The notes under the pieces: model-generated
What the model was told of the DNA's origin: nothing
Databases searched by the model: none
The model's input: only the letters and a program-made list of their open reading frames with translations
Shown here: positions 1 to 28,625 of the stretch, piece by piece
Layout of the letters: each line of letters starts with the position of its first letter
Position numbering within the stretch: position 1 is the first letter of the stretch
Made by a program: the position numbers and the translations under genes
Source: an uncultured Pirellulales bacterium
Lineage (GTDB): Bacteria; Planctomycetota; Phycisphaerae; Sedimentisphaerales; Anaerobacaceae
Direction: 5' to 3'
Assembly (NCBI GenBank): GCA_964475805.1
Contig: CAYZAH010000001.1
Coordinates: 1 to 32,980 of the forward strand
Length of the DNA: 32,980 bases

Positions 1-3000
1 ACACCATCGAGGTAAACCCGCAGAATTACACCAGCGCCAGAGCATTTTTCGCGGCGAACAACATGAACGTGCGGGCTCTCAATGGCCTTTCGGTGCCGCG
101 GTCCATGCTGCCCGACCCAGATGAGATAGCCCGGAGAACCATCACAGACGTGGATTACGACGGCATATTCGTGGACCACAACCAAGAGAACCGAGTACAG
201 TTCTATTACGACGAGACCGATTTCCCACTGGTTGAGGACGACTTGCTCTACAAATGCCTCGAACGATTCGACTTCAGGCCTGATTTCGTGCTTCTCGACA
301 GTGCCGGGCACATGGGGAGTATCGAATTTGATTATCTCATAGACCATCTACAAGCCGAATGCTATATCGCGCTGGATGACATCTATCATGTCAAGCACCA
401 TTGCAGTTTTCAGCGAATACAGAGTGATCCGCGATTCGAAGTCTTCACGGCCTCAAAGGAAAAGTTCGGATTCTGCATCGCTCGCTTCATGCCTGCCCGG
501 AATGTTTGCGAGCAATCTGTGAAACATTTCCTCTGGGTGCGGACGGATTCCATCGGTGATGCGGTACTGGCCTCTTCCATGCTGGCGTTCGTTCGCGAGA
601 GATACGGCCATCCGAAGATAACCGTTGTGTGCCGCAGTCATATTGCCGAGTTGTATGAGAACTGCCCATATGTAGACGCCGTAGTGACGTTCGATGAAAA
701 GCAACTTCTGAACAACTCAGCGTATGCCTCTGAAATATTCGAAAGCGTACGAAATCTGAGAGTGGATTGCACGCTGAACTCGGTCTATTCGCGAGACGTT
801 ATTTGTGACCTTATGGTCGGGGCCAGCGGAGCCGGATTGCGCATCGGTATGCATGGCAACCTTTGCAACATTTCCGAGGAGTTACGGGCACAACACGATC
901 AATGGTACACGCACCTTCTATCTAGCGCGGGAGAACGCAAATCCGAACTGGAACGCCACGTTGACTTTCTGCATGGCATAGGATGCGAGGTCGATGAATT
1001 GACGCCGAAAATCTGGTTGACAGTGGAGGATGAAGCATTTGCCGACGATTGGTTTGAGCGGCACGGCTTCCATCCGCAACAGACTGTTGCTTTGTTTGCC
1101 GGAGTGCAAAGCCCCGAACGGATATACACACATTACGGCAAGGCAATTGCCGAGATATGCAGGGAGAATGGTTTTTCCGTGGTCGCCCTTGGGGCTGGCA
1201 ACGACCGAGAACTGAATCGGCATAATCTGAAGGACATCGAGAATGCGGGCGTGAGAGCCTGTGATTCATCTGGCAAACTCACACTGCGCCAGTCTGCTGC
1301 GATCATCAAACGCTGTCACTTGGCCGTCGGCGCTGAGACCGGATTGGCACATATTGCCGCCGCCGTGGGGACAGAACACGTCATTGTAATTGGGGGCGGC
1401 CAATTCGGACGTTTTATGCCCTATTCTCCACTGACATCGCTCGTATGTCTGCCGTTGGTCTGCTACGGGTGCGGCTGGAAGTGTGCATACCGAGAATCCC
1501 AGGTTTATTGCGTCGCATCCATACCGCCGGATGTCATCGAATACGCCGTTCGAGAAACCTTGCGAACACCATCAAGCAAGCCACGCTTGTTTGTTCAGGA
1601 TCGCTCGCTGTGGGATCCGCAGCAAGGAACACCTCAGTGGGAACCGTTTGACCGAATGCTTAATGTTGAGAACGTCGAGATCATTCCGGTCAGCTGGCCC
1701 ACCAAAAACAACACATCCACCGAACAAACGACTTCCTCCGTGGACGTTAGTATTATCGTCGCGACGAAGAACCGCGCTCATCTGCTCGATGATATGCTCA
1801 CCAGTGTTAAGGAAGCGGCTACGGGTGTAGCCTGTGAAGTAATCGCTATCGAAGGAGGCTCTTCCGACCACACCCGGCAGATTCTGGAAAAGCACGGAAT
1901 CACCCAGGTTTATGACGAGTCGGAATGTCTCGGACCGGGCGAGCACTCGTGGGCACAGTTGTATAACTTCGGGTTCTCAAAGGCACGCGGCCGGTGGGCG
2001 ATGTATGCCAGCGATGACATTGTTTTCGAGAAAGGATGCATCGCAAAGGCGGTCGACATTTTGCGGGATCAGAAATCTCCGTCTGTTGCAGGAGGTGTTT
2101 TCTTCTATCGAGAAATAATCCCTGAATATCCCGGCTGGGAAAAACAAGGGATTTGTTTTGCTCTCGGGCACAAACTGTTGATGAACTTCGGACTCATCCA
2201 ACTCGACGTGTTCAAAAAGCTGGGCGGATTCGACGAGACTTACTTGTTCCGCGGCGCCGATATCGATCTTTCCTTCAAGATTTACAAAAACGGGCAACAA
2301 CTTATCCCCTTGTCCGGCTGTTTATTGATACACAATAACGTACAGGACGAACTGAAAAAGAAGGGCCTCCAAACAGCTCAGAGGGACCACCAATGTCTCC
2401 TGCGAAAGTGGAAGGATTTCGTGCCTCCCAGACTGGATCCGCCCAAGCGTCTATTCTGGGAACCACAATACGCAACGGCATTCACGATGCCAAGTGAACT
2501 GGAAGACGTGAACGTCGGCACTGAGCACTTCTGGCACGGCCTTGCATGTCTGCAAATCGGCCAGCACCACGAGGCGGTAAAATGGTTTTCACAAGCCCTA
2601 AACATTTCCTGCAAACACTGGACGGTGTTTTGGCTTGTGGCCGAAGCGCTATATCACATTGGATACAACGAGCAAGCACGAAAGACAGCAGATTTTGTTC
2701 TCAGGATCAATCCCGGCTGTGTTGAGATACAACCCCTGTTGAATCGCCTGAAAAGTCGCATACAACCCATCGTCGGCACTGACCGGAATGCCGGGAGCGG
2801 CCCCGTGATCCATGTGCCTCGCTCACACTTCGTCATTGAAGTCAAATATGGTGGGATTGGCGATCACCTGTTCTACAGCCATTTGCCTCGCATCGCAAAA
2901 CAGAGCGGCCAATATGACCGTGTTTATATATCTAACCACTCCAAATTCAGAAGCCCGGAGTATCGCGAACTGGTTTGGGAGCGCAATCCCTACGTCGATG

Positions 3001-3542
3001 GCTTCTGCGACGAAAACGCAGATTATCCAGTGTTTGATTCCGTCGAGGAAGGCACGAACATTCTGGATAAGATCATGCTGTTGCGAGGTCTGGATGATGG
3101 AAAGCGGTTTCATGAACCCGAGTTGTACCTAAAATGTCAGCGCAGGACGGACTTGTGCGATGCAGTTGTCTATGATCCTAACTTTGTATCGTATGTCGGA
3201 GACGTTTCCAGAGAGGAGATCGAAAGTTTCCTCCGACACAATCACATTCACGTGACGCATCAGATGAGATTGTGGGAGAAACATTATGCTCTCGATCATT
3301 GCGACACGATACTCCGGACGGATACGTTGGAGGACTTCTGCCAGGTTATTGTGTCATGCAGACAATTGTTATGTTTGTCTTCGGGAACGGCGACTCTCGC
3401 CGCGGCGCTCGGCAAGCCTGCTATCGTCTTCTGCGGAAACGGCCAGAAAAAGATGTTCCACCATTCGCATTTGCATAGATACGTAAACTGTTCCACCAAA
3501 ATCAGCTCTGCCAAACGCATTGAGAACGTGTTGCAGGTATAA
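1..3542 (+). CDS. Multidomain glycan-modifying polyprotein, probably 5'-partial: class I SAM methyltransferase-like segment + GT9 (heptosyltransferase-like) + GT2 + TPR-like + second GT9-like/GxGD module
   Basis: The frame is open from nt 3 to the window edge (TIEVNPQNYTSARAFFAANN precedes the first ATG at 63), so the real start is likely upstream. Approximate modules from the translation: MTase-like nt 3-500 (FDFRPDFVLLDSAGH, IALDDIYHVKHH); GT9 nt 525-1560 (FLWVRTDSIGDAVLASSMLAFVRERYGHPKITVV, AVGAETGLAHIAAAVG); GT2 nt 1740-2340 (VSIIVATKNRAHLL, YASDD); TPR-like nt 2520-2730; second GxGD module nt 2820-3539 (IEVKYGGIGDHLFYSHL, SSGTATLAAALGKPAIVF). Confidence 0.8.
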   Translation, partial: TIEVNPQNYTSARAFFAANNMNVRALNGLSVPRSMLPDPDEIARRTITDVDYDGIFVDHNQENRVQFYYDETDFPLVEDDLLYKCLERFDFRPDFVLLDSAGHMGSIEFDYLIDHLQAECYIALDDIYHVKHHCSFQRIQSDPRFEVFTASKEKFGFCIARFMPARNVCEQSVKHFLWVRTDSIGDAVLASSMLAFVRERYGHPKITVVCRSHIAELYENCPYVDAVVTFDEKQLLNNSAYASEIFESVRNLRVDCTLNSVYSRDVICDLMVGASGAGLRIGMHGNLCNISEELRAQHDQWYTHLLSSAGERKSELERHVDFLHGIGCEVDELTPKIWLTVEDEAFADDWFERHGFHPQQTVALFAGVQSPERIYTHYGKAIAEICRENGFSVVALGAGNDRELNRHNLKDIENAGVRACDSSGKLTLRQSAAIIKRCHLAVGAETGLAHIAAAVGTEHVIVIGGGQFGRFMPYSPLTSLVCLPLVCYGCGWKCAYRESQVYCVASIPPDVIEYAVRETLRTPSSKPRLFVQDRSLWDPQQGTPQWEPFDRMLNVENVEIIPVSWPTKNNTSTEQTTSSVDVSIIVATKNRAHLLDDMLTSVKEAATGVACEVIAIEGGSSDHTRQILEKHGITQVYDESECLGPGEHSWAQLYNFGFSKARGRWAMYASDDIVFEKGCIAKAVDILRDQKSPSVAGGVFFYREIIPEYPGWEKQGICFALGHKLLMNFGLIQLDVFKKLGGFDETYLFRGADIDLSFKIYKNGQQLIPLSGCLLIHNNVQDELKKKGLQTAQRDHQCLLRKWKDFVPPRLDPPKRLFWEPQYATAFTMPSELEDVNVGTEHFWHGLACLQIGQHHEAVKWFSQALNISCKHWTVFWLVAEALYHIGYNEQARKTADFVLRINPGCVEIQPLLNRLKSRIQPIVGTDRNAGSGPVIHVPRSHFVIEVKYGGIGDHLFYSHLPRIAKQSGQYDRVYISNHSKFRSPEYRELVWERNPYVDGFCDENADYPVFDSVEEGTNILDKIMLLRGLDDGKRFHEPELYLKCQRRTDLCDAVVYDPNFVSYVGDVSREEIESFLRHNHIHVTHQMRLWEKHYALDHCDTILRTDTLEDFCQVIVSCRQLLCLSSGTATLAAALGKPAIVFCGNGQKKMFHHSHLHRYVNCSTKISSAKRIENVLQV

Positions 3543-3545
3543 GAT

Positions 3546-6500
3546 ATGGTCATAGTGAAACTATACGGCGGTTTGGGCAATCAGCTTTTTCAATACGCGA
3601 TGGCTCGGAGAATCGCAAAAGAGAGTCATTCGCTCCTTAAGCTTGATGTATCAACGGGATTTGAAAACGATTTCTATCGGCGCACGTACAGTCTGAATCA
3701 TTTCAACATCGCCGAACATTTCGCCTCGCCGAAAGATATTGTGGGATTACGGTACATCAAAGAGAAGTACTTCCATTTCGATCCTGACATTCTGGACCTG
3801 CATGACGGCGTCTACCTGGACGGATACTGGCAAAGCGAGAAGTACTTCAAGTCCGTCGAAGACGTCATTCGTGATGAGCTAACCGTAAGAGAACCGCTTC
3901 AAGGCGCCAACCTGAAAATTGCCGAAGAAATAACCCAGACTCATTCGGTATGCGTCCATTTGAGAAGGCTCTACGGCATTTCATGCCGTCAAGTAGACAC
4001 TCAGGGTGTGAATATACACGGCTCGGTCCCACTCGATTACTATTACCGCTCCGTCGAACGGCTCACCCAAACGATCAAAGACCCACACTTTTTTGTCTTC
4101 AGCGATGACCCGGGCTGGACACGGGACAACTTGAAACTGCCCTATCCGACGATGATCGTCGCGAGTAACGGGCCGGGCAAGGATTATGAAGATTTGCGTT
4201 TAATGAGTCTGTGCAAGCATCATATCATCGCCAACAGCACGTTCTCATGGTGGGGAGCGTGGCTGAATTCCGGGAAGGACAAAACGGTTTTTGCTCCCGG
4301 GCAATGGTTCAACGCCGCCGAGCACAACGTCAAAGACCTCATCCCTGAAACGTGGACTAAGATTTCCGCACCGAAGCCCCCTGCTGCCGATCTAAGTAAA
4401 TATGGCCGTTTCATAAGCTATGGATTGTATCAGGAAATTCAGTCGAAGACTGCCGAGACCGAGAGGCACTCGCCAAAGATTTCAGTGATCATCCCGTGTT
4501 ACAACCAGGCTCGTTATCTGCCCGAGGCGGTTGAGTCTCTGGTCCATCAGACCTATACCAACTGGGAGTGCATCATCGTCAATGACGGCAGCACCGACGA
4601 CACGGTAGAAGTAGCTAACCGGTTGATTGCCAGGTATCCCGACAAACAGATTCGATTTATTGACAAACCACACAGCGGCGTATCCGACACTCGCAACGCG
4701 GGGATTGAGGTCGCTACCGGCCAGTGGATACTGCCGCTCGACAGCGACGATATGTTCGAGCCGAGTTTCATGCAGAAGGCGATGGATATCGTCAACCATG
4801 AGTCAAAGGTAGATGTCGTCTTCTCAAATATGCAGGAATTCGGCGCCTCGCATGGACAGTGGATACCGGATGAGTACTCCCGCGAGCAGGTCATGCTGAC
4901 CGATACGATGCCTTACGCAAGCCTGTATCGCAAGGAGCTCTGGCACAAGGTGGGCGGATACGATAAGCCGCTGAGCGTCATAAGGCAACCGGAAGACTGG
5001 AGCTTCTGGATAAGCTGCTCCAAACACAACGTAGTCGTTAAACGAATCCGGGAGAGGCTCTTCCTCTACCGCGTTCACTCCCAGAGCACGTACCTTACAA
5101 AGATCAAACCCAACCGCCGGCTTGCGTGGGCTTTTGTCGCTACCTGTCATCCGGACCTGTATTCGCCTCAAGTACTTGTCGAGGCGTGGCGGTTGATCTC
5201 GGATTGCCCTGATGGTGTTTACGCTCGAATCATCGAAGCGACTGAGAAATGTCCCAACTCCGGCTTATCCTGTTTTTGGCGGGCCTTGGTGGAGAGAAAA
5301 CACTGTCAAAAAGACGAAGCGACAAAGCACTGTCTGGAGGCAGTGGAGAAAGCCAGAAGGAACGATTGGCAAGCCGCCTTTATTTTGATGAACTGGCAAA
5401 AAAATGACGGTGAGTTTGCCTCTTCGGCTGAAAGCCTGCAAAGACTCCTGGAGATCAGGCCTGATTTCGAATGGGCGCGAGATATGTTGCCAGCCGCCGC
5501 TCAAGATAGTACGCACAGTGAACGGTCTATCCCAAGCGGTATGCGAAGAATCCTGTTTTATTTCGATAGAATCGGTAATCTCGATCAAACCAGTCCCGCC
5601 GGCACGGTTATCTCCGTATTCAACCTCGCAAAAATGCTCCAAGCTCATCGGCCTGGCGTGGAGATTCACATAACCGGCAACCTCGTGAGCCGACCCGAGC
5701 AATATGAGTCCCTTAAGATCCTTCCTCTACCCCCAGCCGACAAACGATCAGAGTTCCTTTCGGAATACGACATCGTTTTCTTCGCTACGCACATCCGGTG
5801 GTTCAAAGAAACGCCCAAACGTCCTGGACAAGTGTGGTTCATCCACCAACATTGCTGGGATTTCGACGATGAATCGAGACCTCGTATCGGAGACGTGGAT
5901 GCCGTGATCTGCCTTTCGGAATATCACAAAGCGTTTCTGGAAAGCAGAGGTATCGCCGCAGAGAAACTCGTTATCATCCCCAACCTCATTGACACAAACA
6001 GGTATCGGCCCGGAAACATCCGTCGAGACGAACGCTCGATTATGTTTGCCGGAGGGATTCATCCACACAAGGGAGTGCATCTTTTGTTAGATGCGTTTCA
6101 GTTGGTTCGTCGGCAAATGCCCGATATTACATTGCACCTCTACGGTGATGGAGCCATGTGGCGAGGTGGGGATGATTACGGAAACTACCTCAAGAGCGTA
6201 AAACCGCAGGGCGTCTATTTCCACGGATATATCGACCAAAGCCGGATGCCCGATATTTACTCGAAGCACGGGATATTATGTCTACCCTCCGTACTGGAGA
6301 GTTTCGGCCTCGTGACAGTCGAGGCCCAGGCTTGTGGCTGTGTCCCAATCGTCCACAAGGTCGGAGGTGTAGCAGCTACTTTAGCTGACGGCTCGACCGG
6401 CTTCTTGTACGAGCCGAATACCCCGCAAAAACTGGCCGAGGCAATACTCAAAGCCATGCGAACGGTTGATCTGGATCCGTCTTTTCGCCAACGGGCAATG

Positions 6501-7724
6501 GATTTTGCACGTGACCATTTCAGTATGACAAAAGCGAATCGCTACATTTCTGTGCTTGAGGACAAAATCGACGACATCAGGCGGGCAGGTGATTCAAAAG
6601 CGGCAGTCGGTCAAAATACCCAAAGCCTTCAAGCCGGCTCAAGTGAACCCTTAGTCAGCGTAGTCATGCCTGTTTGTAACGGCGCGTGCTACATTGGACA
6701 GGCCATTGAGAGTGTTCTGACGCAAGACTATTCCAATATCGAGATCGTAGTCATTGACGACGGTTCTACGGACAATACCCGCCAGATCATCTTAGGTTAC
6801 AACGACAGGCGTATCAGATACTTGCATCAGGAAAACAAGGGCGTCGCCAGCGCTCGAAACCTCGGTATCCGCCAGGCCAAAGGACAGTTTATTGTACCCC
6901 TGGATGCCGACGATATGATGACGTCATCTTGCATCTCCAGGCATTTGGCCGAATTCAAGAGACATCCTGAGGTGGATTTAGTCTACTCGGACGTCCTGCT
7001 CATCGACGAAACCAGCCATCCGCTAAGGCTGATGAAGAAACCTGAGTATTTGGACCGCAGACATCTGATCAGAGATCTGTTCCGTGCGGGCCATCCGATA
7101 GTGCCTTTCAGACTTGGGATCAAAAAGAGCGTCTTCGATAGGATCGGCTTCTATGATGAGAGTCTGCTGGTCGGCGAGGACTACGATATGATGAGGCGCT
7201 TCGTCAAAGCCGGACTTATAGCCCGTCACCTGGGCGAGGCTTTACATTTGCGAAGAGTGCAGCCGAACAGTCTCACGAGGATGCACTCAGCCCAGAAAGC
7301 AAAATGCCATTTCGACGTTGTTAAGCGATTCGTTAAGACATTTGCATGTGACGAGTTATTTCCGGACGTAGCGTGGGACGAGATGTCTTACAACAAACGG
7401 CGGGTACACGCAAGATGCCTGGTCGTCGGCACGTATCTCGCTATGGGCCAGGACTTCTCGAATTCGAACTCGCCGCGCATCTATGTCAGGATGGCTTTCG
7501 AAGAGGCTTGCTCACATCTACGGGAATGCCTTGAGATCGATCCCGACAACCTGGCAATCCGACAACTGTTGTACAAGTGTGAACGCGGGAAGCGAAACTA
7601 CGAGGATGGTGCCCAGCCGACGAGTTTACTGCCGGCGCTCGCCACTCCACGACCGGCCGCCGTCGATTCCCGCGAGGCGGTGGTTCCTGAGGATGAGAAA
7701 GTCGGTGTGGGCGTGAACAAATAA
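3546..7724 (+). CDS. Four-GT polyprotein: GT11 (alpha-1,2-fucosyltransferase-like) + GT2 + TPR-like linker + GT4 + GT2 + TPR-like tail
   Basis: The ATG lies 4 nt after the upstream stop. GT11 nt 3546-4370 (KLYGGLGNQLFQYA, VHLRR, IIANSTFSWWGAWL); GT2 nt 4476-5105 (SVIIPCYNQARYL, VNDGSTDDT, LDSDD); TPR-like nt 5250-5480; GT4 nt 5544-6560 (LPSVLESFGLVTVEAQACGCVPIVHKVGG); GT2 nt 6651-7295 (SVVMPVCNG, IDDGSTDNT, LDADD); TPR-like tail nt 7407-7583. Confidence 0.85.
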   Translation: MVIVKLYGGLGNQLFQYAMARRIAKESHSLLKLDVSTGFENDFYRRTYSLNHFNIAEHFASPKDIVGLRYIKEKYFHFDPDILDLHDGVYLDGYWQSEKYFKSVEDVIRDELTVREPLQGANLKIAEEITQTHSVCVHLRRLYGISCRQVDTQGVNIHGSVPLDYYYRSVERLTQTIKDPHFFVFSDDPGWTRDNLKLPYPTMIVASNGPGKDYEDLRLMSLCKHHIIANSTFSWWGAWLNSGKDKTVFAPGQWFNAAEHNVKDLIPETWTKISAPKPPAADLSKYGRFISYGLYQEIQSKTAETERHSPKISVIIPCYNQARYLPEAVESLVHQTYTNWECIIVNDGSTDDTVEVANRLIARYPDKQIRFIDKPHSGVSDTRNAGIEVATGQWILPLDSDDMFEPSFMQKAMDIVNHESKVDVVFSNMQEFGASHGQWIPDEYSREQVMLTDTMPYASLYRKELWHKVGGYDKPLSVIRQPEDWSFWISCSKHNVVVKRIRERLFLYRVHSQSTYLTKIKPNRRLAWAFVATCHPDLYSPQVLVEAWRLISDCPDGVYARIIEATEKCPNSGLSCFWRALVERKHCQKDEATKHCLEAVEKARRNDWQAAFILMNWQKNDGEFASSAESLQRLLEIRPDFEWARDMLPAAAQDSTHSERSIPSGMRRILFYFDRIGNLDQTSPAGTVISVFNLAKMLQAHRPGVEIHITGNLVSRPEQYESLKILPLPPADKRSEFLSEYDIVFFATHIRWFKETPKRPGQVWFIHQHCWDFDDESRPRIGDVDAVICLSEYHKAFLESRGIAAEKLVIIPNLIDTNRYRPGNIRRDERSIMFAGGIHPHKGVHLLLDAFQLVRRQMPDITLHLYGDGAMWRGGDDYGNYLKSVKPQGVYFHGYIDQSRMPDIYSKHGILCLPSVLESFGLVTVEAQACGCVPIVHKVGGVAATLADGSTGFLYEPNTPQKLAEAILKAMRTVDLDPSFRQRAMDFARDHFSMTKANRYISVLEDKIDDIRRAGDSKAAVGQNTQSLQAGSSEPLVSVVMPVCNGACYIGQAIESVLTQDYSNIEIVVIDDGSTDNTRQIILGYNDRRIRYLHQENKGVASARNLGIRQAKGQFIVPLDADDMMTSSCISRHLAEFKRHPEVDLVYSDVLLIDETSHPLRLMKKPEYLDRRHLIRDLFRAGHPIVPFRLGIKKSVFDRIGFYDESLLVGEDYDMMRRFVKAGLIARHLGEALHLRRVQPNSLTRMHSAQKAKCHFDVVKRFVKTFACDELFPDVAWDEMSYNKRRVHARCLVVGTYLAMGQDFSNSNSPRIYVRMAFEEACSHLRECLEIDPDNLAIRQLLYKCERGKRNYEDGAQPTSLLPALATPRPAAVDSREAVVPEDEKVGVGVNK

Positions 7725-7728
7725 AGAG

Positions 7729-7755
7729 TTAAGAAAAACCACCGTCAACCGATAA
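7729..7755 (+). promoter_or_regulatory. Candidate sigma28 (FliA)-type promoter for fliD
   Basis: TTAAGAAA-N11-ACCGATAA compared with the enteric consensus TAAAGTTT-N11-GCCGATAA. The -10 matches 7/8 and the -35 is weak, but it shares TTAAG with the flagellin promoter at 27669. It lies about 80 nt upstream of the fliD ATG. Confidence 0.4.
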
Positions 7756-7835
7756 GAGACTATATAAGGGCGTCCGCCGGTTGCCTGTACAGCCGGCCTG
7801 AAAGTACGCCAGGTTGAATAGAAAGGTAGAAACGG

Positions 7836-10184
7836 ATGGCCACCATAAATCTACCCGGCTTGTCCACGGGGATCGACACGAGCCAGATCATTCAGCAATT
7901 GATGGCGGTCGAGCGCCGCTCGCTCAATTTATACGAAGAACGCAAGAGCACATGGGACGAACGTAAGAGCGCTCTGAGCACGTTGGAAGGCAAGCTCAGC
8001 AACTTGAAAAGCGCCGCCAGCGCCCTTTCCGACGCCGACGGGCTCCGCGCCTTTAAGACGGCCTCCAGCGACTCCGACAAGCTGACCGCAGAGGCTTCCT
8101 ACAATGCCTTCGAGGGAAATCACACGGTGGTTATCAACCAGTTGGCTACTGCGGAGCGCTGGGTCCAGACGGAAGGCATCGAATACGCCGAGGACTACGT
8201 GGGAGCCGGCACATTTATTTATTCCTACGACAACAAGGAAGCCACTATAACAACCACAGAGACGACCACCCTTGAGGATTTGGTCGGTCTGATTAACAAT
8301 GACGCAAACAATCCCGGCGTGACTGCCAGCCTGCTCTACTACAACGACGCCTACCACCTGGTGTTGAATGGAAATGACGCCGGCACAGATTATCGAATCT
8401 CGATCAACGAAAGCAGCACAGAGATGTGGCAAGCCGATAGTGAGCTGACGTACGCCGGGGACAATGCGACGCTGGCGACGAAGATCACGGATATCGATCA
8501 ATTCAGTGGAACACTCTCGGGTGATGAGGTGATTGAGATCACGGGCACGGACCATAACGGCAACACCATTGCCCAAGTGAACCTCAGCGTGACGAGCAAT
8601 ACAAAACTCAGCCACCTCATTAGCGAAATCAATGATGCTTTTGACGGGATAGCGAAAGCCACCTTAGAAAACGGGAAAATAATCCTGACGGACAAAGCAC
8701 CCGGGGCGAGCGATCTTTCGATTAGTCTCAATTATAGTGATAGCAACGCGTCGTCTACATTCACCTTGCCGACTATGGCCGTGTTGACGGAAGGTGGAAT
8801 CGCGACGGCCAACCTCACCGGTTTTACCGCGTCTGATTTTACGCAGACCCAGGCCGCTCAAAATTCTTTGATTCGAGTCGATGGTTATCCTTCCACTTCA
8901 GCGGTTGCCGAGGTTCAGACGATGGAACGCAGTCCGTCGCCGAACGACGGTACCTACACTTTAACGTATGAAGGACAGACTACGGCCGCCATCGCTTATA
9001 ATGCATCCACCTCTGAAATTCAAGCCGCACTGGAGGCGCTGTCCACCATAGGCGCCGGAAGCATAACAGTAGGAGGCGGAACCGAGGGTCTGGCAGATGG
9101 TGCTGTGACGTTCACATTCAGCACCACTCTCGGCAACGTGAGCATGATATCGGTGAACGGCAGTGATCTTGGCCCGAGTGGCTCGACTGTTACCGTTGAA
9201 GAAACAGCAAAAGGCATCCCGGCCTACATCAGCCGGAGTTCCAACACGGTAGATGACGTGATTCACGGAGTTGCATTGCACCTGCACGATGTCACGGACG
9301 CCACGGGTGAAGAAATCACGTTGACCAGGGATATCGAGTCGGTAAAGGACCGATTGACCTCCATGGTCGAGGCCTATAATCTCGCTGTCGCCAATATTCA
9401 AGAGACAACCGGCTACGATAGTGATACTAAACAAGCCGGCGTGCTCATAGGAGATTACGTCGTACGGACCATCGAGTCTCAACTACGCACACCCTTTGTC
9501 GCGCGGACCAGCGGTTTTGTCGTAGACATCGACACCTTCCTAATGCCCGGTCAGATTGGCCTTGAACTGGATAAAGACGGGCTTCTAAATCTGGACTCCA
9601 ACGCACTCGATGAAGCGATCGCTGAGGATTATATGAGTGTGCTGGCCCTCATTGGAGCGGACAAAACGGGCAGCAGCAACAGTAATACGATCAAATTCTA
9701 CGGCGCCGCCAGCAATTATACGACCGCGAATACATATGACGTGGAGGTCACCGTCAACGGCGGGGCTATCACCGGCGCAAGAATCAAGCTCTCGACCGAG
9801 TCCGAATGGCGCGACGCGACGTACAGTGGCAATATCGTCACAGGCGACAGTACGTTCGACAACAACGGCGATCCCGTGCATCCGGAAAACGCCCTTCAAT
9901 TGAGCGTGGACCTGAGTCAGGACGGGACATTTGACGCTACCGTCAGAGTCCGGCAAGGTTTTGCCGGGGCATTAGAAGACGCACTGGACAACATGCTCAA
10001 GGTAAGCACCGGTTCCATTCAGATGGACCGGGACAACGTGGACGACCAAATAGAAATACTTCAGGAGAGGATTGACCTCGAAGACTATCGTCTGACAAAA
10101 CGTGAGGAAAGACTGACGGCTCAATATGCCCGTCTCGAAAAAACTCTAACCCTTCTGCAAAGCCAGTTGAACGCCCTGAGTTAA
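7836..10184 (+). CDS. fliD: Flagellar filament cap protein FliD (hook-associated protein 2), long form (782 aa)
   Basis: N-terminus LPGLSTGIDTSQIIQQLMAVERRSL and C-terminal coiled coil RLTAQYARLEKTLTLLQSQLNALS are typical of FliD. Central motif AQNSLIRVDG ... YISRSSNTVDDVIHGVALHL. GGTAGAAACGG precedes the ATG. Confidence 0.93.
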   Translation: MATINLPGLSTGIDTSQIIQQLMAVERRSLNLYEERKSTWDERKSALSTLEGKLSNLKSAASALSDADGLRAFKTASSDSDKLTAEASYNAFEGNHTVVINQLATAERWVQTEGIEYAEDYVGAGTFIYSYDNKEATITTTETTTLEDLVGLINNDANNPGVTASLLYYNDAYHLVLNGNDAGTDYRISINESSTEMWQADSELTYAGDNATLATKITDIDQFSGTLSGDEVIEITGTDHNGNTIAQVNLSVTSNTKLSHLISEINDAFDGIAKATLENGKIILTDKAPGASDLSISLNYSDSNASSTFTLPTMAVLTEGGIATANLTGFTASDFTQTQAAQNSLIRVDGYPSTSAVAEVQTMERSPSPNDGTYTLTYEGQTTAAIAYNASTSEIQAALEALSTIGAGSITVGGGTEGLADGAVTFTFSTTLGNVSMISVNGSDLGPSGSTVTVEETAKGIPAYISRSSNTVDDVIHGVALHLHDVTDATGEEITLTRDIESVKDRLTSMVEAYNLAVANIQETTGYDSDTKQAGVLIGDYVVRTIESQLRTPFVARTSGFVVDIDTFLMPGQIGLELDKDGLLNLDSNALDEAIAEDYMSVLALIGADKTGSSNSNTIKFYGAASNYTTANTYDVEVTVNGGAITGARIKLSTESEWRDATYSGNIVTGDSTFDNNGDPVHPENALQLSVDLSQDGTFDATVRVRQGFAGALEDALDNMLKVSTGSIQMDRDNVDDQIEILQERIDLEDYRLTKREERLTAQYARLEKTLTLLQSQLNALS

Positions 10185-10268
10185 GGCGAACAAAGTATGG
10201 TTTACGAGTTGCGATTGTTGACTGTGTGACTCTGTCGAATCTGTAGATCGCAAATCGAAAATCAAACG

Positions 10269-11342: not shown

Positions 11343-11358
11343 GTTCTATCCCAGATCG

Positions 11359-11379
11359 TTGACTATTGACAATTGACTA
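11359..11379. repeat. Three tandem heptamers TTGACTA-TTGACAA-TTGACTA (minus-strand sense TAGTCAA-TTGTCAA-TAGTCAA) 16 nt upstream of the flhB ATG
   Basis: Read directly from the sequence. Located in the 111-nt fliR-flhB spacer. Confidence 0.6.
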
Positions 11380-11453
11380 ATCGCACGCGAGCAGTCCCCC
11401 GGTACACGTAGACTCTTCATTAGTTAGTAGCCCACGGACAATCCAAACGGTCT

Positions 11454-12206: not shown

Positions 12207-12209
12207 AGA

Positions 12210-12479
12210 TCAGCGCCCAATATTCTGAATCTGGCCGAAGATTTCATTCGTGAACCGAAGAACGACATCCAGAATCCAGCCACCGCAGACCAATACGACG
12301 ACGCCTACAGCCAGAAGCTTCGGGACGATTGATAAGGTCATGTCGCGGATGGACGTTACGGCCTGAAGCAACGTAACGACCACACCAACAATGATACATG
12401 TCAGTAAGATCGGGGCTGACAGAAACAAAACTGTCTCGAGGGTACGCCGACTTAGGTAAAGAACGAAACTGCTATCCAT
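12210..12479 (-). CDS. fliQ: Flagellar export gate protein FliQ
   Basis: 89 aa, two TM segments, LSAPILLTCIIVGVVVTLLQAVTSIRDMTLSIVPKLLAV, located between fliP and fliR. Confidence 0.92.
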   Translation of the reverse strand: MDSSFVLYLSRRTLETVLFLSAPILLTCIIVGVVVTLLQAVTSIRDMTLSIVPKLLAVGVVVLVCGGWILDVVLRFTNEIFGQIQNIGR

Positions 12480-25817: not shown

Positions 25818-25947
25818 GCGCCATTATGAGCGACTTGGAACAGACGGACAGCACGTTAGAAGGATCGTTCGGTCTTACGGTCTCTATGAGTTCGACGAAG
25901 CCAGCCATCGGTGGGGAGATGTGATACGACAGGAGCAGAAGCTTGAC

Positions 25948-27564
25948 ATGCAAGCGACAAGCGTTGGTGAAGCTGTGAATACCGCCGTGCGCGAGTATGA
26001 GGCGGGACGTTTGGCGCCGGCCGAACGCGCGTGTCGGGCGGTCCTCCAAAGCCATCCTCAGAACGCTCATGCCTTGCACCTGCTCGGGGCCATCACATAT
26101 AAGAAGGGACTCCACAACCAGGCGATCGAGTTGGTTCGAGAAGCGATTGCGCAAGACCAGGACGTACCCCAATTCCACAACACCCTCGGAGCCGCGTTGC
26201 GCGCCGCCGGGCAGTTCGAGGAAGCCATTGCCGCTTATGAGCGGGCGATATCACTCGACCCTGAATACCTCCGCGCCTACATCAACATGGGCAATGCCCT
26301 CGTTTTCCAGGGCCGATACGCCCGTGCGGCAGAGAAGTACCGTCACGTGATATCGCTGGACCCGACGTGCGTCGAAGCCTACGACTGTATGGCTGTGGCG
26401 CTTCAATACCAAGGACAATATGACGCGGCGATTGTCGCGTGCAATCAGGCCTTAGCGCTCGATCCCGATGACGTGGAGACCTACAACACAATGGCCTGCG
26501 TGCTTATGAGGCAAGGTCGCTGCGCTGAAGCGATTGAGACATACAAGCGCGTCCTTCAAATCAAACCCGACTATGCCAAGGCCCACTGCAACCTGGGGAT
26601 GGCGCTTCTGCTCAGTGGAAGACTCAGGGAGGGGTGGGCTGAGTATAGATGGCGAGTCCGTACCGGAAACGTAGCGTGCTCGCCGCGTTATGACTCGCCT
26701 TGCTGGGACGGTTCGCCTTTTGTGGGCAAAAGACTCGTCGTGCACTTCGAGCAGGGCTTCGGCGACAACATCCAATTCATACGATACCTGCCGATGGTGA
26801 AGCGTCGCGGCGGCACGGTCATCTGCGAGATGCTGAGACCCCTGGTGGGCCTCTTGCGAGGATTTCCGGGAATTGACGAATTGGTAGAGGCTTCGTCCAC
26901 GGGCAAGTCGTCCATAAACAGCGACCTGCACGTACCCTTGTTAGAACTTCCAAGGATATTCGGGACGGCTTTGCACACCATACCCTGCGACGTTCCTTAC
27001 CTTCATGCCGACCTGTTGAAAGCCGAATACTGGCGGAAGAAACTCTCTATGCCGGGATTCAAGGTAGGGATCGTGTGGGCCGGGACACCCGCTCACATGG
27101 AGAATAGGGCTCGCTCTTGCCGTTTGAGCCACTTCCTGCGACTGTCAAAGGTCCCCGGCATGCAGCTTATCGGACTGCAAAAGGGTGCCGCCGCCGGACA
27201 AGCTGATGAAATGGCGACAAGGATGTCAGTCATGAATCTCGCTGATGAGCTCCATGATTTCACAGATACGGCCGCGGTGATCGCCAACCTGGACCTGGTG
27301 ATCTCGGTGGATACCGCCGTTCTGCACTTGGCCGGGGCGATGGCCAAGCCGGCGTGGGCAGTGCTGTCTTTCGCACCCGACTGGCGATGGATGCTGGATC
27401 GAGACCACAGCCTCTGGTATCCGAGCATCAGGCTATTTAGGCAAAGCAAATACGGGGATTGGGGCGGCGTCTTCGAGCGTATAGCGGAGGAATTGGCGAT
27501 ACTAAGCGACTCGATGCCCGTAACTCGTGGCTCGAGCACCGAGATTCAAGTCTTCACAAAATGA
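25948..27564 (+). CDS. TPR-repeat + GT9-like (GT-B) glycosyltransferase with FlmG-type architecture; candidate flagellin glycosyltransferase
   Basis: About seven TPRs (nt ~25960-26690; e.g. AHALHLLGAITYKKGLHNQAIELVREAI, AYINMGNALVFQGRYARAAEKY). The C-terminal domain carries GT9-like motifs VVHFEQGFGDNIQFIRYLP, VGIVWAG, and LVISVDTAVLHLAGAMAKPAWAVLSFAPDWRWM. I prefer the ATG at 25948; the ORF-track GTG is at 25921. It ends 248 nt upstream of the flagellin gene. Confidence 0.8.
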   Translation: MQATSVGEAVNTAVREYEAGRLAPAERACRAVLQSHPQNAHALHLLGAITYKKGLHNQAIELVREAIAQDQDVPQFHNTLGAALRAAGQFEEAIAAYERAISLDPEYLRAYINMGNALVFQGRYARAAEKYRHVISLDPTCVEAYDCMAVALQYQGQYDAAIVACNQALALDPDDVETYNTMACVLMRQGRCAEAIETYKRVLQIKPDYAKAHCNLGMALLLSGRLREGWAEYRWRVRTGNVACSPRYDSPCWDGSPFVGKRLVVHFEQGFGDNIQFIRYLPMVKRRGGTVICEMLRPLVGLLRGFPGIDELVEASSTGKSSINSDLHVPLLELPRIFGTALHTIPCDVPYLHADLLKAEYWRKKLSMPGFKVGIVWAGTPAHMENRARSCRLSHFLRLSKVPGMQLIGLQKGAAAGQADEMATRMSVMNLADELHDFTDTAAVIANLDLVISVDTAVLHLAGAMAKPAWAVLSFAPDWRWMLDRDHSLWYPSIRLFRQSKYGDWGGVFERIAEELAILSDSMPVTRGSSTEIQVFTK

Positions 27565-27668: not shown

Positions 27669-27695
27669 TTAAGTTTCCGTTATCGCCCTCGATAA
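27669..27695 (+). promoter_or_regulatory. Sigma28 (FliA)-type promoter of the flagellin gene
   Basis: TTAAGTTT-N11-CTCGATAA compared with TAAAGTTT-N11-GCCGATAA. Spacing is exact, the -35 matches 7/8, and the CGATAA core is intact. It lies about 118 nt upstream of the ATG. AAGGAG SD at 27799-27804. Confidence 0.7.
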
Positions 27696-27812: not shown

Positions 27813-28625
27813 ATGTTATCAATCAAGACCAACGCCATGGCGGCAAATGCTGCTCGGCACTTAGGAAACACTTACGGCGCCCTTGCTCAGTCGGTCGAGA
27901 GGCTGTCGTCAGGCCAGCGTATCAACAGCGCCAAGGATGACGCCGCCGGCTTGGCAGTCCGAGAACTGATGCGAGCCGACATCGCCGTACTCCAACAGGG
28001 CGCTCGTAATGCACAGGACGCGATCAGTATGGTACAAGTTGCAGAAGGCGGCATGCAGACAATCAATGATCTGCTCGTAAGGATGAAGCAGTTGGCTGAG
28101 CAGGCGGGTACAGGGACGTATTCTGCAGCGCAACGGTCTCTCTTGAACAACGAGTTCGACGAATTGGCCAATGAAATTGATCGCATTGCAGGGTCGGCCA
28201 CGTTCAACGGCGTCAGCTTGCTCAATAGCGCCAGTGGCACCATATCCGTGATGTTTGGCGATGTAACGGACCGCATCACCATCAACACCACTAACATGAC
28301 TCAGTCCGCGCTTTCCATCAACACTCTGAGCATCAACCAAGCAGCCAGTGCGCAGGCGGCCTTGACGACTTTGGCCACGGCCATCAATACAGCGAATTCT
28401 GCTCGGGCAGCATTCGGTGCGAAGATGAACCGTCTTGACAATACCGTCAACGTCATCAATGTACAGGTCGAGAATCTTACGGCATCAGAATCTCGGATTT
28501 CTGACGTCGATGTGGCTACCGAAATGGCCACCATGACAAGAAACCAAGTATTGGCCCAAGCCGGTGTGGCCATGTTGGCGCAAGCCAATGCCGTGCCGCA
28601 GATGGCATTGAGTCTCCTGAGATAA
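27813..28625 (+). CDS. fliC: Flagellin (minimal D0/D1-only form, 270 aa)
   Basis: N-terminus MLSIKTNAMAANAARHLGNTYGALAQSVERLSSGQRINSAKDDAAGLAV and C-terminus MTRNQVLAQAGVAMLAQANAVPQMALSLLR. The central segment is short and Ser/Thr-rich (SASGTISVMFGDVTDRITINTTNMTQSALSINTLSINQ). Confidence 0.97.
   Translation: MLSIKTNAMAANAARHLGNTYGALAQSVERLSSGQRINSAKDDAAGLAVRELMRADIAVLQQGARNAQDAISMVQVAEGGMQTINDLLVRMKQLAEQAGTGTYSAAQRSLLNNEFDELANEIDRIAGSATFNGVSLLNSASGTISVMFGDVTDRITINTTNMTQSALSINTLSINQAASAQAALTTLATAINTANSARAAFGAKMNRLDNTVNVINVQVENLTASESRISDVDVATEMATMTRNQVLAQAGVAMLAQANAVPQMALSLLR

What the first reader, a model, noticed from the sequence alone, without database searches (positions are those of the whole stretch)
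1..7724. Two giant fused glycosyltransferase 'assembly-line' proteins (1 MTase-like + 7 GT modules, each with TPR-like segments) sitting directly on fliD
Seen in the sequence:
- Two same-strand ORFs are separated by 3 nt.
- The first concatenates MTase-like + GT9 + GT2 + TPR-like + a GT9-like module.
- The second concatenates GT11 + GT2 + TPR-like + GT4 + GT2 + TPR-like.
- All GT2 modules keep a DxD-type motif (SDD, DSDD, DADD).
- The pair ends 111 nt upstream of fliD, with a possible sigma28 promoter in between.

Established knowledge:
- Flagellin glycosylation genes commonly cluster next to fliC/fliD.
- Those I recall are mostly sets of single-domain genes.
- The known dedicated flagellin transferases FlmG (Caulobacter) and GmaR (Listeria) combine a GT domain with TPRs that recognise the protein substrate.
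- GT9-fold enzymes can O-heptosylate proteins (the TibC/AAH autotransporter heptosyltransferases).

Inference:
- Fusing this many catalytic modules with TPR-like segments beside the filament genes suggests a processive machine.
- It could build a complex glycan, possibly containing fucose or heptose and methylated, on a flagellar protein or sheath.
- I am not aware of a described system with this architecture.
- The alternative is an envelope-polysaccharide locus that is adjacent by chance.
Basis: partly seen in the sequence, partly recalled or inferred. Interest (0 to 1): 0.8.

Follow-up and report, generated by a model that had tools for sequence, protein, structure and literature searches.

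The report
Giant fused glycosyltransferases beside flagellar cap gene
Two huge proteins that each string together several sugar-adding enzymes sit directly upstream of the flagellar cap gene in a planctomycete, and this arrangement recurs across many species, so they most likely decorate the flagellar filament with a complex sugar chain, although no experiment has yet shown this.

Summary
ORF1 (bases 3-3542, cut by the contig end) and ORF2 (3546-7724) are intact, same-strand and 3 nt apart. Together they carry seven glycosyltransferase (GT) modules: GT9, GT2 and a compact GT9-like fold in ORF1; GT11, GT2, GT4 and GT2 in ORF2. They also carry part of an O-methyltransferase-like domain and three weak TPR-like segments.

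ORF2 ends 111 nt before fliD. That gap holds a sigma28-like motif also found before the flagellin gene.

A 99.7%-identical database protein shows that full-length ORF1 is 2,090 aa, with one more GT2, a Methyltransf_24 domain and an unknown domain.

The adjacency is not chance:
- Every planctomycete relative examined keeps giant GTs ending about 50-175 nt upstream of fliD. Some are single ORFs of 3,000-4,000 aa.
- The conserved methyltransferase-GT9 unit lies within 10 kb of fliD or flagellin in 30 of 80 species genomes from several phyla.
- In four other genomes the same unit sits next to a Wzm/Wzt O-antigen-type exporter, and never next to both.

Best reading: a cytoplasmic, multi-module flagellar glycosylation island, built with the enzyme logic of polymerase-terminator O-antigen systems. 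A separate TPR-GT beside the flagellin gene is the likely priming enzyme. The target protein, the sugars and any processivity are unproven.

Verdict: a new variant of a known kind.

The parts
3..3542 (+). ORF1, the C-terminal 1,179 aa of a ~2,090-aa multi-module glycosyltransferase; its N-terminus is lost at the contig end
   Evidence: It is open to base 3. It aligns end to end with L001 aa 902-2067 and L002 aa 736-1908. It is 1176/1179 identical to P0373, a 2,090-aa protein.
3..512 (+). C-terminal part of an O-methyltransferase-like (class I, COMT/YrrM-type) domain; the SAM-binding half lies upstream of the contig
   Evidence: A family profile matches YrrM 5zw3 (E 1e-3) and COMT (E 4e-3). The domain is always paired with the following GT9 module (98 of 120 homologues). 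It is homologous to the C-terminal extension of a Wzt ATPase in L089 (E 5e-47).
513..1592 (+). GT9 module 1 (heptosyltransferase-type GT-B), ending in four invariant Cys
   Evidence: Pfam Glyco_transf_9 E 2e-16. The PDB profile matches 1psw at 6e-16. The AF2 model (pLDDT 85.5) gives Foldseek matches to 3tov (E 4e-18, TM 0.75-0.80), WaaF and WaaC.
1710..2402 (+). GT2 module with an SDD motif
   Evidence: Pfam Glycos_transf_2 E 1.7e-13. The motif AMYASDDIVF is present.
2403..2777 (+). TPR-like helical segment (weak)
   Evidence: ANAPC3 E 0.006, TPR_2 0.03. LcrH/SycD TPR chaperone model E 7e-6, below its cut-off. TPR_19 E 8e-4 in the L001 orthologue.
2778..3539 (+). Compact GT9-like module; member of a large unannotated stand-alone ~250-aa family
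   Evidence: No Pfam hit. 352 homologues, mostly ~250-aa 'hypothetical proteins'. AF2 pLDDT 92.5. The Foldseek top 30 are all GT9. Stand-alone members lie in Wzx/Wzy loci.
3546..7724 (+). ORF2, a 1,392-aa protein with four GT modules
   Evidence: The same architecture occurs in P0002-P0011 at 68-79% identity.
3546..4415 (+). GT11 module (alpha-1,2-fucosyltransferase family)
   Evidence: Pfam Glyco_transf_11 E 8e-26. The HxRR motif is conserved in three of four relatives checked.
4443..5165 (+). GT2 module a (DSDD)
   Evidence: Pfam Glycos_transf_2 and Glyco_tranf_2_3 at aa 310-501. The motif is at aa 399-402.
5166..5525 (+). TPR-like segment a (weak)
   Evidence: TPR_2 E 3.4e-5, 24.1 bits against a cut-off of 27.
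5526..6575 (+). GT4 module (GT-B, retaining type)
   Evidence: Glycos_transf_1 E 1.2e-29 and Glyco_transf_4 E 2.4e-6. The EX7E motif ESFGLVTVE is conserved.
6633..7355 (+). GT2 module b (DADD); this module type is the last one before fliD in all relatives
   Evidence: Pfam hit at aa 1038-1198. Module map.
7356..7724 (+). TPR-like segment b (weak), C-terminal tail and stop codon
   Evidence: TPR_14 E 0.004 and TPR_19 E 0.014. Homologous segments precede fliD in L028, L032, L034, L061 and L068.
7730..7755 (+). sigma28-like promoter motif TAAG-N14-ACCGATAA upstream of fliD
   Evidence: Pattern scan. The same geometry occurs before the flagellin gene, and the motif is conserved in L001. Alignment.
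7836..10184 (+). fliD (filament cap), 782 aa
   Evidence: FliD_N E 1.8e-22 and FliD_C E 1.4e-39; NCBIfam.
25921..27564 (+). TPR + GT9-like GT-B protein (FlmG-like architecture); candidate flagellin-priming transferase
   Evidence: TPR families E down to 4e-39, with Glyco_transf_9 E 4e-6 at aa 427-478. Heptosyltransferase I model E 3e-7. Strong homologues lie beside flagellin in other phyla.
27670..27695 (+). sigma28-like promoter motif upstream of the flagellin gene
27813..28625 (+). Flagellin, 270 aa, short type, with a Ser/Thr-rich centre
   Evidence: Flagellin_N E 1.3e-36 and Flagellin_C E 1.9e-24. Ser+Thr is 17-33% in aa 120-240.

Best explanation
The two ORFs are the core of a flagellar glycosylation island in a Sedimentisphaerales (Planctomycetota) bacterium.

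**Proposed mechanism**
- The two proteins are soluble and cytoplasmic. Each carries several independent glycosyltransferase active sites on one polypeptide, joined by short helical (TPR-like) linkers. ORF1 also carries sugar O-methyltransferase-type domains.
- A protein-directed transferase attaches the first sugar to Ser/Thr of a filament protein before export. Flagellin is the most likely target, and possibly also the long, Ser/Thr-rich FliD. The best candidate for this priming step is the separate TPR-GT encoded beside the flagellin gene.
- The fused modules then extend that sugar into a hetero-oligosaccharide, roughly one module per linkage.
- The conserved methyltransferase-GT9 unit may add and methylate a chain-end residue. 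This would mirror terminator modules in ABC-transporter-dependent O-antigen synthesis.
- Swapping of modules between close relatives diversifies the glycan.

**Shown versus inferred**
- Shown: module identities, intact ORFs, a soluble character, conserved linkage to fliD or flagellin, and mutual exclusivity with Wzm/Wzt exporters.
- Inferred: the acceptor protein, the order of action, the capping role, and the donor sugars.
For: **Module identities**
- Pfam, NCBIfam, PDB profile and Foldseek results agree.

**Soluble character**
- No hydrophobic segment was found in either protein.

**Conserved synteny with fliD**
- Giant GT(s) followed by fliD occur in L001-L003 and L088 and in 20 species-level genome loci from Sedimentisphaerales, Anaerohalosphaeraceae, Pirellulales and Phycisphaerales.
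- The giant ORFs end about 50-175 nt upstream of fliD.

**Linkage of the MTase-GT9 unit**
- It lies within 10 kb of fliD in 20 loci, and of flagellin, flaF or flbT in 10 more, out of 80.
- Among the 39 loci with full flanks, 20 are linked in this way.
- The linked genomes include Geobacter, Desulfobacterales, Ignavibacteria and Brocadia.
- In Geomonas oryzisoli, four giant GT and TPR-GT genes abut flaF/flbT.

**No exporter nearby**
- No ABC-transporter ATPase or Wzm was found in any flagellar-linked locus. Both are immediately adjacent in the four non-flagellar loci L031, L076, L085 and L089.

**Supporting context**
- Upstream genes in relatives are nucleotide-sugar enzymes.
- Modules are swapped between relatives that are 74-76% identical.
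- A FlmG-like TPR-GT lies beside a short, Ser/Thr-rich flagellin. FlmG-type enzymes have this two-domain design (PMC7591256).
- Long, methylated flagellin glycans are known elsewhere (PMC3958885).
Against: - There are no biochemical or mass-spectrometry data for any member of this family.
- The modules are not flagellum-specific. Homologous giants sit beside Wzm/Wzt, a Solidesulfovibrio plasmid copy has no flagellar neighbours, and stand-alone C-module homologues are in Wzx/Wzy loci.
- fliD has its own sigma28-like promoter, so co-regulation of the GT genes with flagellar genes is not shown. No such motif was found upstream of the GT genes within L001.
- About half of the full-flank loci show no flagellar gene within 10 kb.
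- Exporters could lie more than 10 kb away.
- A glycan built by eight or more modules would have to pass the narrow flagellar export channel.
Confidence: 0.6

Rival explanations
1. The giant proteins build an envelope glycan, such as an O-antigen, capsule or exopolysaccharide-like polymer, on a lipid carrier. They would act as polymerase-terminator enzymes, with export by a transporter encoded elsewhere. The position next to fliD would reflect shared surface-structure regulation or genome history, not a flagellar target.
For: - Homologous giants with the same MTase-GT9 unit lie directly after wzm-wzt in Ca. Magnetomonas (L089), Geomonas paludis (L076), a Geobacter MAG (L031) and a Nitrospirae MAG (L085). 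In L089 the MTase-like domain is fused to a Wzt that carries a cap-binding Wzt_C module.
- C-module homologues occur in Wzx/Wzy loci.
- Multi-module polymerase-terminator proteins with methyltransferase terminators are established for O-antigens (PMC11231755).
Against: - No ABC ATPase, Wzm, Wzx or Wzy-like gene lies within ±10 kb in any of the flagellar-linked loci. In the exporter-type loci the transporter is immediately adjacent.
- The giant-GT-then-fliD order is kept across at least four planctomycete orders. Chance or drift would not preserve this.
- In other phyla the link is to flagellin, flaF and flbT.
Confidence: 0.17
2. The glycan is flagellar but flagellin is not its main target. The system would modify FliD (the cap), which is unusually long and Ser/Thr-rich here, or another exported axial protein. 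Alternatively it would make a filament-associated coat or sheath material.
For: - In Planctomycetota the conserved neighbour is fliD, not flagellin. In the window the flagellin gene is 20 kb away and has its own TPR-GT.
- FliD is 782 aa with 22-30% Ser/Thr through its middle.
Against: - In Desulfobacterota, Ignavibacteria and Brocadia the same MTase-GT9 giants lie next to flagellin, flaF and flbT.
- fliD and fliC are both late filament genes that commonly flank glycosylation islands.
- Nothing in the sequence identifies the acceptor.
Confidence: 0.15
3. The giant ORFs are decaying or chimeric genes, or an assembly artefact of a metagenome-assembled genome, with no coherent function.
For: - The window is a MAG contig cut inside ORF1.
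- Module content differs between relatives.
Against: - There are no internal stops over 3.5 kb and 4.2 kb.
- Independent assemblies give 68-99.7% identical full-length proteins.
- Catalytic motifs are conserved.
- The TAA-NNN-ATG junction is conserved.
Confidence: 0.02

Closest known systems
Flagellin glycosylation islands (e.g. Pseudomonas aeruginosa PAK 14-gene island; Aeromonas hydrophila AH-3 polar flagellin heptasaccharide; Geobacillus FGI)
   Same: - GT and sugar-modification genes are clustered with late filament genes.
- The enzymes are cytoplasmic and soluble.
- Content varies between strains.
- Known glycans can be long and methylated (PMC3958885, PMC5109656).
   Different: - Here the GTs are fused into proteins of 1,400-4,000 aa instead of separate genes.
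- The families include GT9 and GT11.
- The lineage (Planctomycetota) has no studied case; no paper was found.
- No nonulosonic-acid pathway is visible in the window.
- Glycosylation itself is untested.
Multi-module polymerase-terminator proteins of ABC-transporter-dependent O-antigen synthesis (WbdA/WbdD, WbbB, Klebsiella O7 ORF6; PMC11231755)
   Same: - Several GT modules sit on one soluble polypeptide, with one module per linkage.
- Methyltransferase domains are joined to GT modules.
- The distribution of modules over polypeptides is flexible.
- True homologues of the MTase-GT9 unit occur next to wzm and wzt, where Wzt carries a Wzt_C module.
   Different: - The window's locus and its planctomycete relatives have no Wzm/Wzt and sit on fliD.
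- The module count (8 GT + 2 MTase over two proteins; at least 7 GT-type and 4 MTase-type Pfam hits in one 3,993-aa ORF) exceeds the described 2-3.
- No coiled-coil ruler was identified (not tested).
FlmG (Caulobacter/Brevundimonas flagellin glycosyltransferase; PMC7591256, bioRxiv 10.1101/2022.03.25.485807)
   Same: - It has N-terminal TPRs plus a C-terminal GT-B domain.
- The 547-aa protein at 25921-27564 has this design and sits directly upstream of a short (270-aa) flagellin gene.
   Different: - Sequence homology to FlmG could not be tested, because no FlmG sequence was available here.
- FlmG transfers pseudaminic or legionaminic acid, for which no pathway genes are seen in the window.
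- The giant ORFs themselves are not FlmG-like, and their TPR-like segments are weak.
GT9 LPS heptosyltransferases (WaaC, WaaF) and TibC/AAH protein heptosyltransferases
   Same: Two ORF1 modules share the GT-B fold and donor-site motif.
   Different: - Module 1 matches WaaF, WaaC and 3tov but not TibC: TibC is absent from the top 50, absent at E<=1 by sequence, and the TibC/AAH family model scores E 0.012 (14.6 bits) against a cut-off of 200 bits.
- The C module is about 80 aa shorter than known GT9 enzymes.
- The donor sugar is unknown.
Viral and eukaryotic multi-GT proteins (chlorovirus PBCV-1 A111/114R with three GT functions; LARGE1; K4CP)
   Same: Several GT activities are fused so that one protein builds consecutive linkages of one glycan (PMC7826918; bioRxiv 10.64898/2026.06.04.729992).
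   Different: - These have two or three modules.
- Their sequences are unrelated and their targets differ.

Membership tests
Flagellar (flagellin) glycosylation island | GT genes clustered with filament genes (fliC, fliD, flaF, flbT), with the clustering conserved in relatives | tested here: met
   fliD lies 111 nt downstream. The same order is found in L001-L003 and L088 and in 20 genome loci, and 10 more loci link to flagellin, flaF or flbT.
Flagellar (flagellin) glycosylation island | Cytoplasmic pathway with no lipid-carrier export or polymerisation machinery | tested here: inconclusive
   No transmembrane segment was found. No ABC ATPase, Wzm, Wzx or Wzy homologue lies within ±10 kb of the flagellar-linked loci. 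The window's own upstream DNA is missing, and more distant genes were not examined.
Flagellar (flagellin) glycosylation island | Flagellin or another flagellar protein actually carries the glycan | not testable with these tools
   This needs mass spectrometry of purified filaments.
Flagellar (flagellin) glycosylation island | Expression with the flagellar regulon | tested here: inconclusive
   The sigma28-like motif precedes fliD and the flagellin gene. None was found upstream of the GT genes within L001, where the operon start lies beyond the available DNA.
CAZy GT9 | Significant match to the Glyco_transf_9 model and a GT-B fold like WaaC/WaaF | tested here: met
   Module 1: Pfam 60.4 bits against a cut-off of 22; Foldseek 3tov E 4e-18. 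C module: fold only, with a GT9 top 30 at E 4e-6 to 2e-3 and no sequence-level membership.
CAZy GT9 | ADP-heptose as donor | not testable with these tools
   No heptose-pathway genes are in the window. Donor specificity cannot be read from the fold.
TibC/AAH protein O-heptosyltransferases (BAHT) | Match to the family model, an iron-finger Cys4 motif and a dodecameric assembly | tested here: not met
   TIGR04414 scores E 0.012, 14.6 bits against a cut-off of 200. No TibC hit at E<=1 by profile. TibC is absent from the top 50 folds for module 1. A Cys4 motif exists but is unmodelled. Oligomeric state is not testable.
FlmG-type flagellin glycosyltransferase (applies to the 547-aa neighbour, not to ORF1/ORF2) | N-terminal TPR domain plus C-terminal GT-B domain, encoded with flagellin genes | tested here: met
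   Searches give the domains. It lies directly upstream of the flagellin gene. Homologues lie beside flagellin in L065-L067, L081 and L084.
FlmG-type flagellin glycosylation (applies to the 547-aa neighbour) | Sequence homology to Caulobacter FlmG; binding of flagellin; nonulosonic-acid donor | not tested
   No FlmG sequence was available in the tools, and no pse/leg genes are in the window.
ABC-transporter-dependent polymerase-terminator glycan assembly | Multi-module GT protein with a terminating (e.g. methyltransferase) module | tested here: met
   Homology of the MTase-like domain to a Wzt-fused domain is shown.
ABC-transporter-dependent polymerase-terminator glycan assembly | Adjacent wzm/wzt exporter, with Wzt carrying a cap-binding module | tested here: not met
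   Absent from the window and from all flagellar-linked loci. Present only in L031, L076, L085 and L089.
ABC-transporter-dependent polymerase-terminator glycan assembly | Coiled-coil molecular ruler separating terminator and polymerase | not tested
   No coiled-coil predictor was run. The helical linkers score weakly as TPR.
GT11, GT2 and GT4 modules of ORF2 | Pfam matches above the gathering score, with family motifs | tested here: met
   DSDD and DADD; EX7E and HxRR.

The most novel reading that the evidence does not exclude
These are flagellum-dedicated 'assembly-line' glycosyltransferases, and the order of modules along one to four giant polypeptides (up to about 4,000 aa) mirrors the order of sugars in the filament glycan.
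- The conserved methyltransferase-GT9 unit sets the chain end.
- A conserved GT2-TPR module next to fliD does the first sugar-to-sugar step.
- The system would be an O-antigen polymerase-terminator toolkit re-used for protein glycosylation in several phyla.
- Glycan structure could then be read from, and re-engineered through, gene architecture, as with polyketide and non-ribosomal peptide synthases.
Probability: 0.15. Interest if true: 0.85.

Novelty: new variant of a known kind. Interest (0 to 1): 0.6.

Why it matters
Flagellar glycosylation is known mainly from pathogens, where separate small enzymes add one or a few sugars.

This case suggests three things:
- Many environmental bacteria (Planctomycetota, Desulfobacterota, Ignavibacteria, anammox bacteria) instead use very large fused enzymes.
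- These enzymes share a conserved methyltransferase-GT9 unit with O-antigen-type systems.
- Their modules are shuffled between close relatives.

If confirmed, it would give:
- a natural set of modular glycan builders;
- a link between envelope-glycan and protein-glycan machinery;
- a testable rule relating module content to glycan structure.

It also points to two unannotated domain families that deserve models: a ~250-aa compact GT9-like enzyme, and the methyltransferase-like partner of GT9.

Tried and rejected
- **Exact-sequence look-ups.** The look-up of ORF2 found no contig. The look-up of P0181 (Geothrix) failed. P0034 returned no DNA and no downstream genes.
- **sigma70 and terminator scan.** No sigma70-type promoter was found in 7400-10400, and no more terminator-like sites than chance.
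- **C module by sequence.** Profile searches of the PDB gave nothing significant (E 0.18 at best). hhalign against the GT9 profile gave only 19-21% probability. The question was settled by structure prediction instead.
- **TibC-type idea for GT9 module 1.** This was rejected.
- **ORF1's TPR-like + C module as an FlmG-like unit related to the 547-aa TPR-GT.** BLASTP gave E 0.065, limited to the TPR part. Stand-alone C-module homologues in Wzx/Wzy loci also argue against protein specificity.
- **First exporter scan.** It appeared to find 'Wzt' everywhere. This was traced to the MTase-like domain fused to the Magnetomonas Wzt, and the scan was repeated with the ATPase and CBM parts alone.
- **Horizontal transfer.** Composition gives no clear signal (GC 0.48-0.55, GC3 0.60 against 0.64-0.69 in neighbouring genes).
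- **RNA genes.** The Rfam and tRNA scans were empty.
- **Literature.** Searches found nothing on planctomycete flagellin glycosylation or on GT9 in flagellin islands.

Full report
**What is in the window.** The window is a whole 32,980-nt contig of a metagenome-assembled genome. ORF2's exact sequence is recorded from one NCBI contig of that length. The nearest named relatives are Sedimentisphaerales and Planctomycetes MAGs.

Gene order across the window:
- Bases 3-3542 (+): ORF1.
- Bases 3546-7724 (+): ORF2.
- Bases 7836-10184 (+): fliD.
- Minus strand, 10269-23454: a long flagellar operon (flhB, fliR, fliQ, fliP, fliO, two motB-type genes, motA, an unknown gene, fliJ, fliI, fliH, fliG, fliF, fliE, flgC, flgB).
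- Plus strand: a fliK-like gene, a 547-aa TPR + GT9-like protein (25921-27564) and a 270-aa flagellin gene (27813-28625).

ORF1 has no stop upstream of base 3, so the contig end cuts it.

**Check of the observation.** The junction reads TAA-GAT-ATG, a 3-nt gap. The same TAA-NNN-ATG junction is present in three relatives.

Pfam places these modules in ORF1:
- GT9, E 2e-16.
- GT2, E 1.7e-13.

Pfam places these modules in ORF2:
- GT11, E 8e-26.
- Two GT2 modules, E 5.6e-71 together.
- GT4, E 1.2e-29.

The three TPR-like segments score below Pfam's thresholds (E 3e-5 to 0.03). They recur in orthologues.

The DxD-type motifs SDD, DSDD and DADD are present, as are a GT4 EX7E motif and a GT11 HxRR motif.

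Two modules that Pfam misses were resolved by other means:
- **N-terminal 170 aa.** This is the C-terminal part of a class I O-methyltransferase-like domain. A family profile matches YrrM (E 1e-3) and catechol O-methyltransferases (E 4e-3). The glycine-rich SAM motif (IIETGTYLGTGTT) lies just upstream of the contig end in all homologues.
- **C-terminal ~255 aa.** This folds with high confidence (pLDDT 92.5). Its 30 best PDB matches are all GT9 enzymes.

A database protein that is 1176/1179 identical to ORF1 is 2,090 aa long. Its extra 911 residues hold an unassigned ~300-aa domain, a GT2 module (E 6.5e-12) and a Methyltransf_24 domain. The complete pair is therefore about 3,480 aa, with 8 GT modules and 2 methyltransferase-type modules.

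**Link to the flagellum.** The 111-nt gap before fliD contains TAAG-N14-ACCGATAA (7730-7755). On the + strand, the only other match in the window lies upstream of the flagellin gene (27670-27695). One more match falls on the - strand inside ORF1 (2284-2260). About 0.6 matches per window are expected by chance on both strands. The motif is conserved before fliD in L001 and, more loosely, in L002 and L003. fliD therefore has its own late-gene promoter. Whether the GT genes are flagellar-regulated remains open.

The adjacency itself is strongly conserved:
- In three contigs with 70-75% identical ORF2 orthologues, and in one with a 58% identical relative, the order is giant GT(s), then fliD, then the same flagellar operon.
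- A scan of one genome per species with a profile of the methyltransferase-GT9 unit returned 165 relatives, of which 80 loci were kept.
- Searching those loci with the window's flagellar proteins found fliD within 10 kb in 20 loci, all from Planctomycetota-type genomes and always downstream.
- It found flagellin, flaF or flbT in 10 more loci, from Geobacter, Desulfobacterales, Syntrophobacteraceae, Ignavibacteria, Melioribacteraceae and Brocadia.
- Among the 39 loci with full flanks, 20 have a filament gene nearby. By my own estimate, flagellar genes occupy only about 1-2% of a genome, so this is a large excess.
- In the cultured Geomonas oryzisoli, proteins of 1,565, 1,298, 1,103 (TPR-GT41) and 590 aa (TPR-GT41) abut flaF/flbT, preceded by nucleotide-sugar enzymes.

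**Fusion state and module swapping.** In planctomycete relatives the DNA upstream of fliD encodes either one very large ORF or several:
- Single stop-to-stop ORFs of 3,993 aa (L009), 3,178 aa (L007), 3,068 aa and 3,062 aa.
- Two to four ORFs, for example 1,093 + 1,557 + 1,459 + 935 aa in L042.

The L009 ORF holds six GT2 stretches, a GT9 module and four methyltransferase-type hits.

A module-by-module map shows:
- The window's full order is kept in L001, L002 and L006.
- L003 replaces the first half of ORF1 with GT2, GNT-I-like and GT4 modules, while the remainder stays 74% identical.
- In all 23 loci a methyltransferase-GT9 unit lies upstream, and a GT2b-type module, often with its TPR-like tail, is the last one before fliD. 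The middle modules vary.

This is the pattern expected for a surface glycan under diversifying pressure.

**The modules are general glycan-building enzymes.** Three results show this:
- The C-terminal GT9-like module belongs to a large family of stand-alone ~250-aa 'hypothetical proteins' with no Pfam model (352 hits). Two examples lie in classical Wzx/Wzy polysaccharide loci.
- In Ca. Magnetomonas plexicatena a homologous 1,855-aa giant directly follows wzm and wzt. That Wzt consists of the ATPase domain, a Wzt_C carbohydrate-binding module and a C-terminal domain homologous to the window's methyltransferase-like domain (E 5e-47). The GT9 module opens the next gene.
- Wzm/Wzt also lie upstream in three genome loci: a Geobacter MAG, Geomonas paludis and a Nitrospirae MAG.

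None of these four loci has flagellar genes within the locus. None of the flagellar-linked loci has any ABC ATPase or Wzm. The two contexts are mutually exclusive in this sample.

In described ABC-transporter-dependent O-antigen systems (PMC11231755):
- Multi-module proteins carry one GT module per linkage.
- A methyltransferase-containing terminator caps the chain.
- The Wzt carbohydrate-binding module recognises that cap.

By analogy, the methyltransferase-GT9 unit may make a capped chain end. This is inference only.

**Most likely mechanism.** ORF1 and ORF2 lack hydrophobic segments, and no exporter is nearby. A glycan built in the cytoplasm can reach the cell surface without a lipid carrier only if it is attached to a protein that is itself exported, and the flagellar type III pathway is the obvious route.

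The 547-aa TPR + GT-B protein directly upstream of the flagellin gene has the two-domain design of FlmG, in which the TPR domain binds flagellin and the GT-B domain transfers the sugar (PMC7591256). Its close homologues sit beside flagellin, flaF and flbT in other phyla. The flagellin is short, with a Ser/Thr-rich centre.

I therefore propose priming by the TPR-GT, extension by the fused modules, and methylation and possibly capping by the methyltransferase-GT9 unit. FliD, which is 782 aa and Ser/Thr-rich, may also be a target. Long, methylated flagellin glycans are known, such as the Aeromonas heptasaccharide and the Pseudomonas PAK glycan (PMC3958885), so a chain of this size is plausible. 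Processivity, module order, donor sugars and the acceptor are all unproven.

**Comparison with known systems and novelty.** The kind of system, a flagellar glycosylation island, is known. So is the fusion of two or three GT modules, as in WbdA, WbbB, Klebsiella O7 ORF6 and chlorovirus A111/114R. What I could not find described is:
- fusion on this scale in a flagellar locus;
- the conserved order of giant GT followed by fliD across Planctomycetota;
- a methyltransferase-GT9 unit shared between flagellar and Wzm/Wzt contexts;
- the unannotated compact GT9-like family.

The literature library is incomplete, so prior descriptions may exist. I rate the finding a new variant of a known kind, of moderate to high interest as a comparative-genomics lead that still needs mass spectrometry and genetics.

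Noticed in passing
window 25921-27564 (+), with 27813-28625: A 547-aa TPR + GT9-like GT-B protein sits directly upstream of a short 270-aa flagellin gene, which is FlmG-like architecture. Strong homologues (E 1e-76 to 1e-129) lie beside flagellin, flaF and flbT in Desulfobacterales and Ignavibacteria. There they often carry an extra C-terminal GT4-like domain, giving about 1,025 aa.
   Followed up: partly
window 2778-3539 (ORF1 aa 926-1179); loci L086, L087: The C-terminal module belongs to a large family of stand-alone ~250-aa proteins with no Pfam model (352 hits at 45-57% identity). The family is GT9-like by predicted fold and is found in Wzx/Wzy polysaccharide loci of Bacteroidota and Acidobacteriota. 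It is a candidate for a new GT family or subfamily model.
   Followed up: yes
L089 7981-9990 (Ca. Magnetomonas plexicatena Wzt): This O-antigen-type Wzt ATPase carries, after its Wzt_C carbohydrate-binding module, a ~240-aa methyltransferase-like domain homologous to the start of window ORF1 (E 5e-47). The partner GT9 domain opens the next gene. The conserved didomain is thus split across the transporter and the glycosyltransferase.
   Followed up: partly
window ~1461-1511 (ORF1 aa 487-503): GT9 module 1 ends with four invariant cysteines (CxxCxxxCx8C), conserved in all ten profile sequences. This may be a metal-binding finger. The AlphaFold2 model has low confidence there, and no relation to the TibC iron finger could be shown.
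   Followed up: partly
window 7836-10184: FliD is unusually long (782 aa) and has a Ser/Thr-rich middle (22-30%). Relatives keep nearly the same length (782-789 aa).
   Followed up: no
window 14097-16344 (-): Two adjacent MotB-type genes (259 and 240 aa; only the first has an OmpA-like domain) follow one motA. The same arrangement occurs in L001, L003 and L088.
   Followed up: no
window 16331-17086 (-): A 251-aa ORF between motA and fliJ matches no family, apart from faint coiled-coil-type hits including the collar protein FlbB (E 0.006). A gene of 240-242 aa with no Pfam hit holds the same position in L001, L003 and L088.
   Followed up: no
window 29304-31148 (-) and 30882-32510 (+): These two ORFs appear to overlap by 267 nt on opposite strands. 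The GFO/IDH/MocA-type oxidoreductase has a twin-arginine signal at aa 171-199, so its true start is probably near 30640 and the overlap is an ORF-calling artefact. The neighbour is a transglutaminase-core protein with beta-propeller-like repeats.
   Followed up: partly
L005 (Solidesulfovibrio carbinoliphilus plasmid, 97.9 kb): A 1,812-aa homologue with two copies of the methyltransferase-like domain and two GT9 domains lies on a plasmid. Its neighbours are NeuB, a CMP-sugar synthetase, an aminotransferase and a teichoic-acid-type glycerophosphotransferase. No flagellar or Wzm/Wzt genes lie within 10 kb.
   Followed up: no
P0373 aa 1-310 (N-terminus missing from the window): The first ~300 residues of the full-length ORF1 orthologue match no Pfam family. 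The region is conserved in the L001 orthologue.
   Followed up: partly
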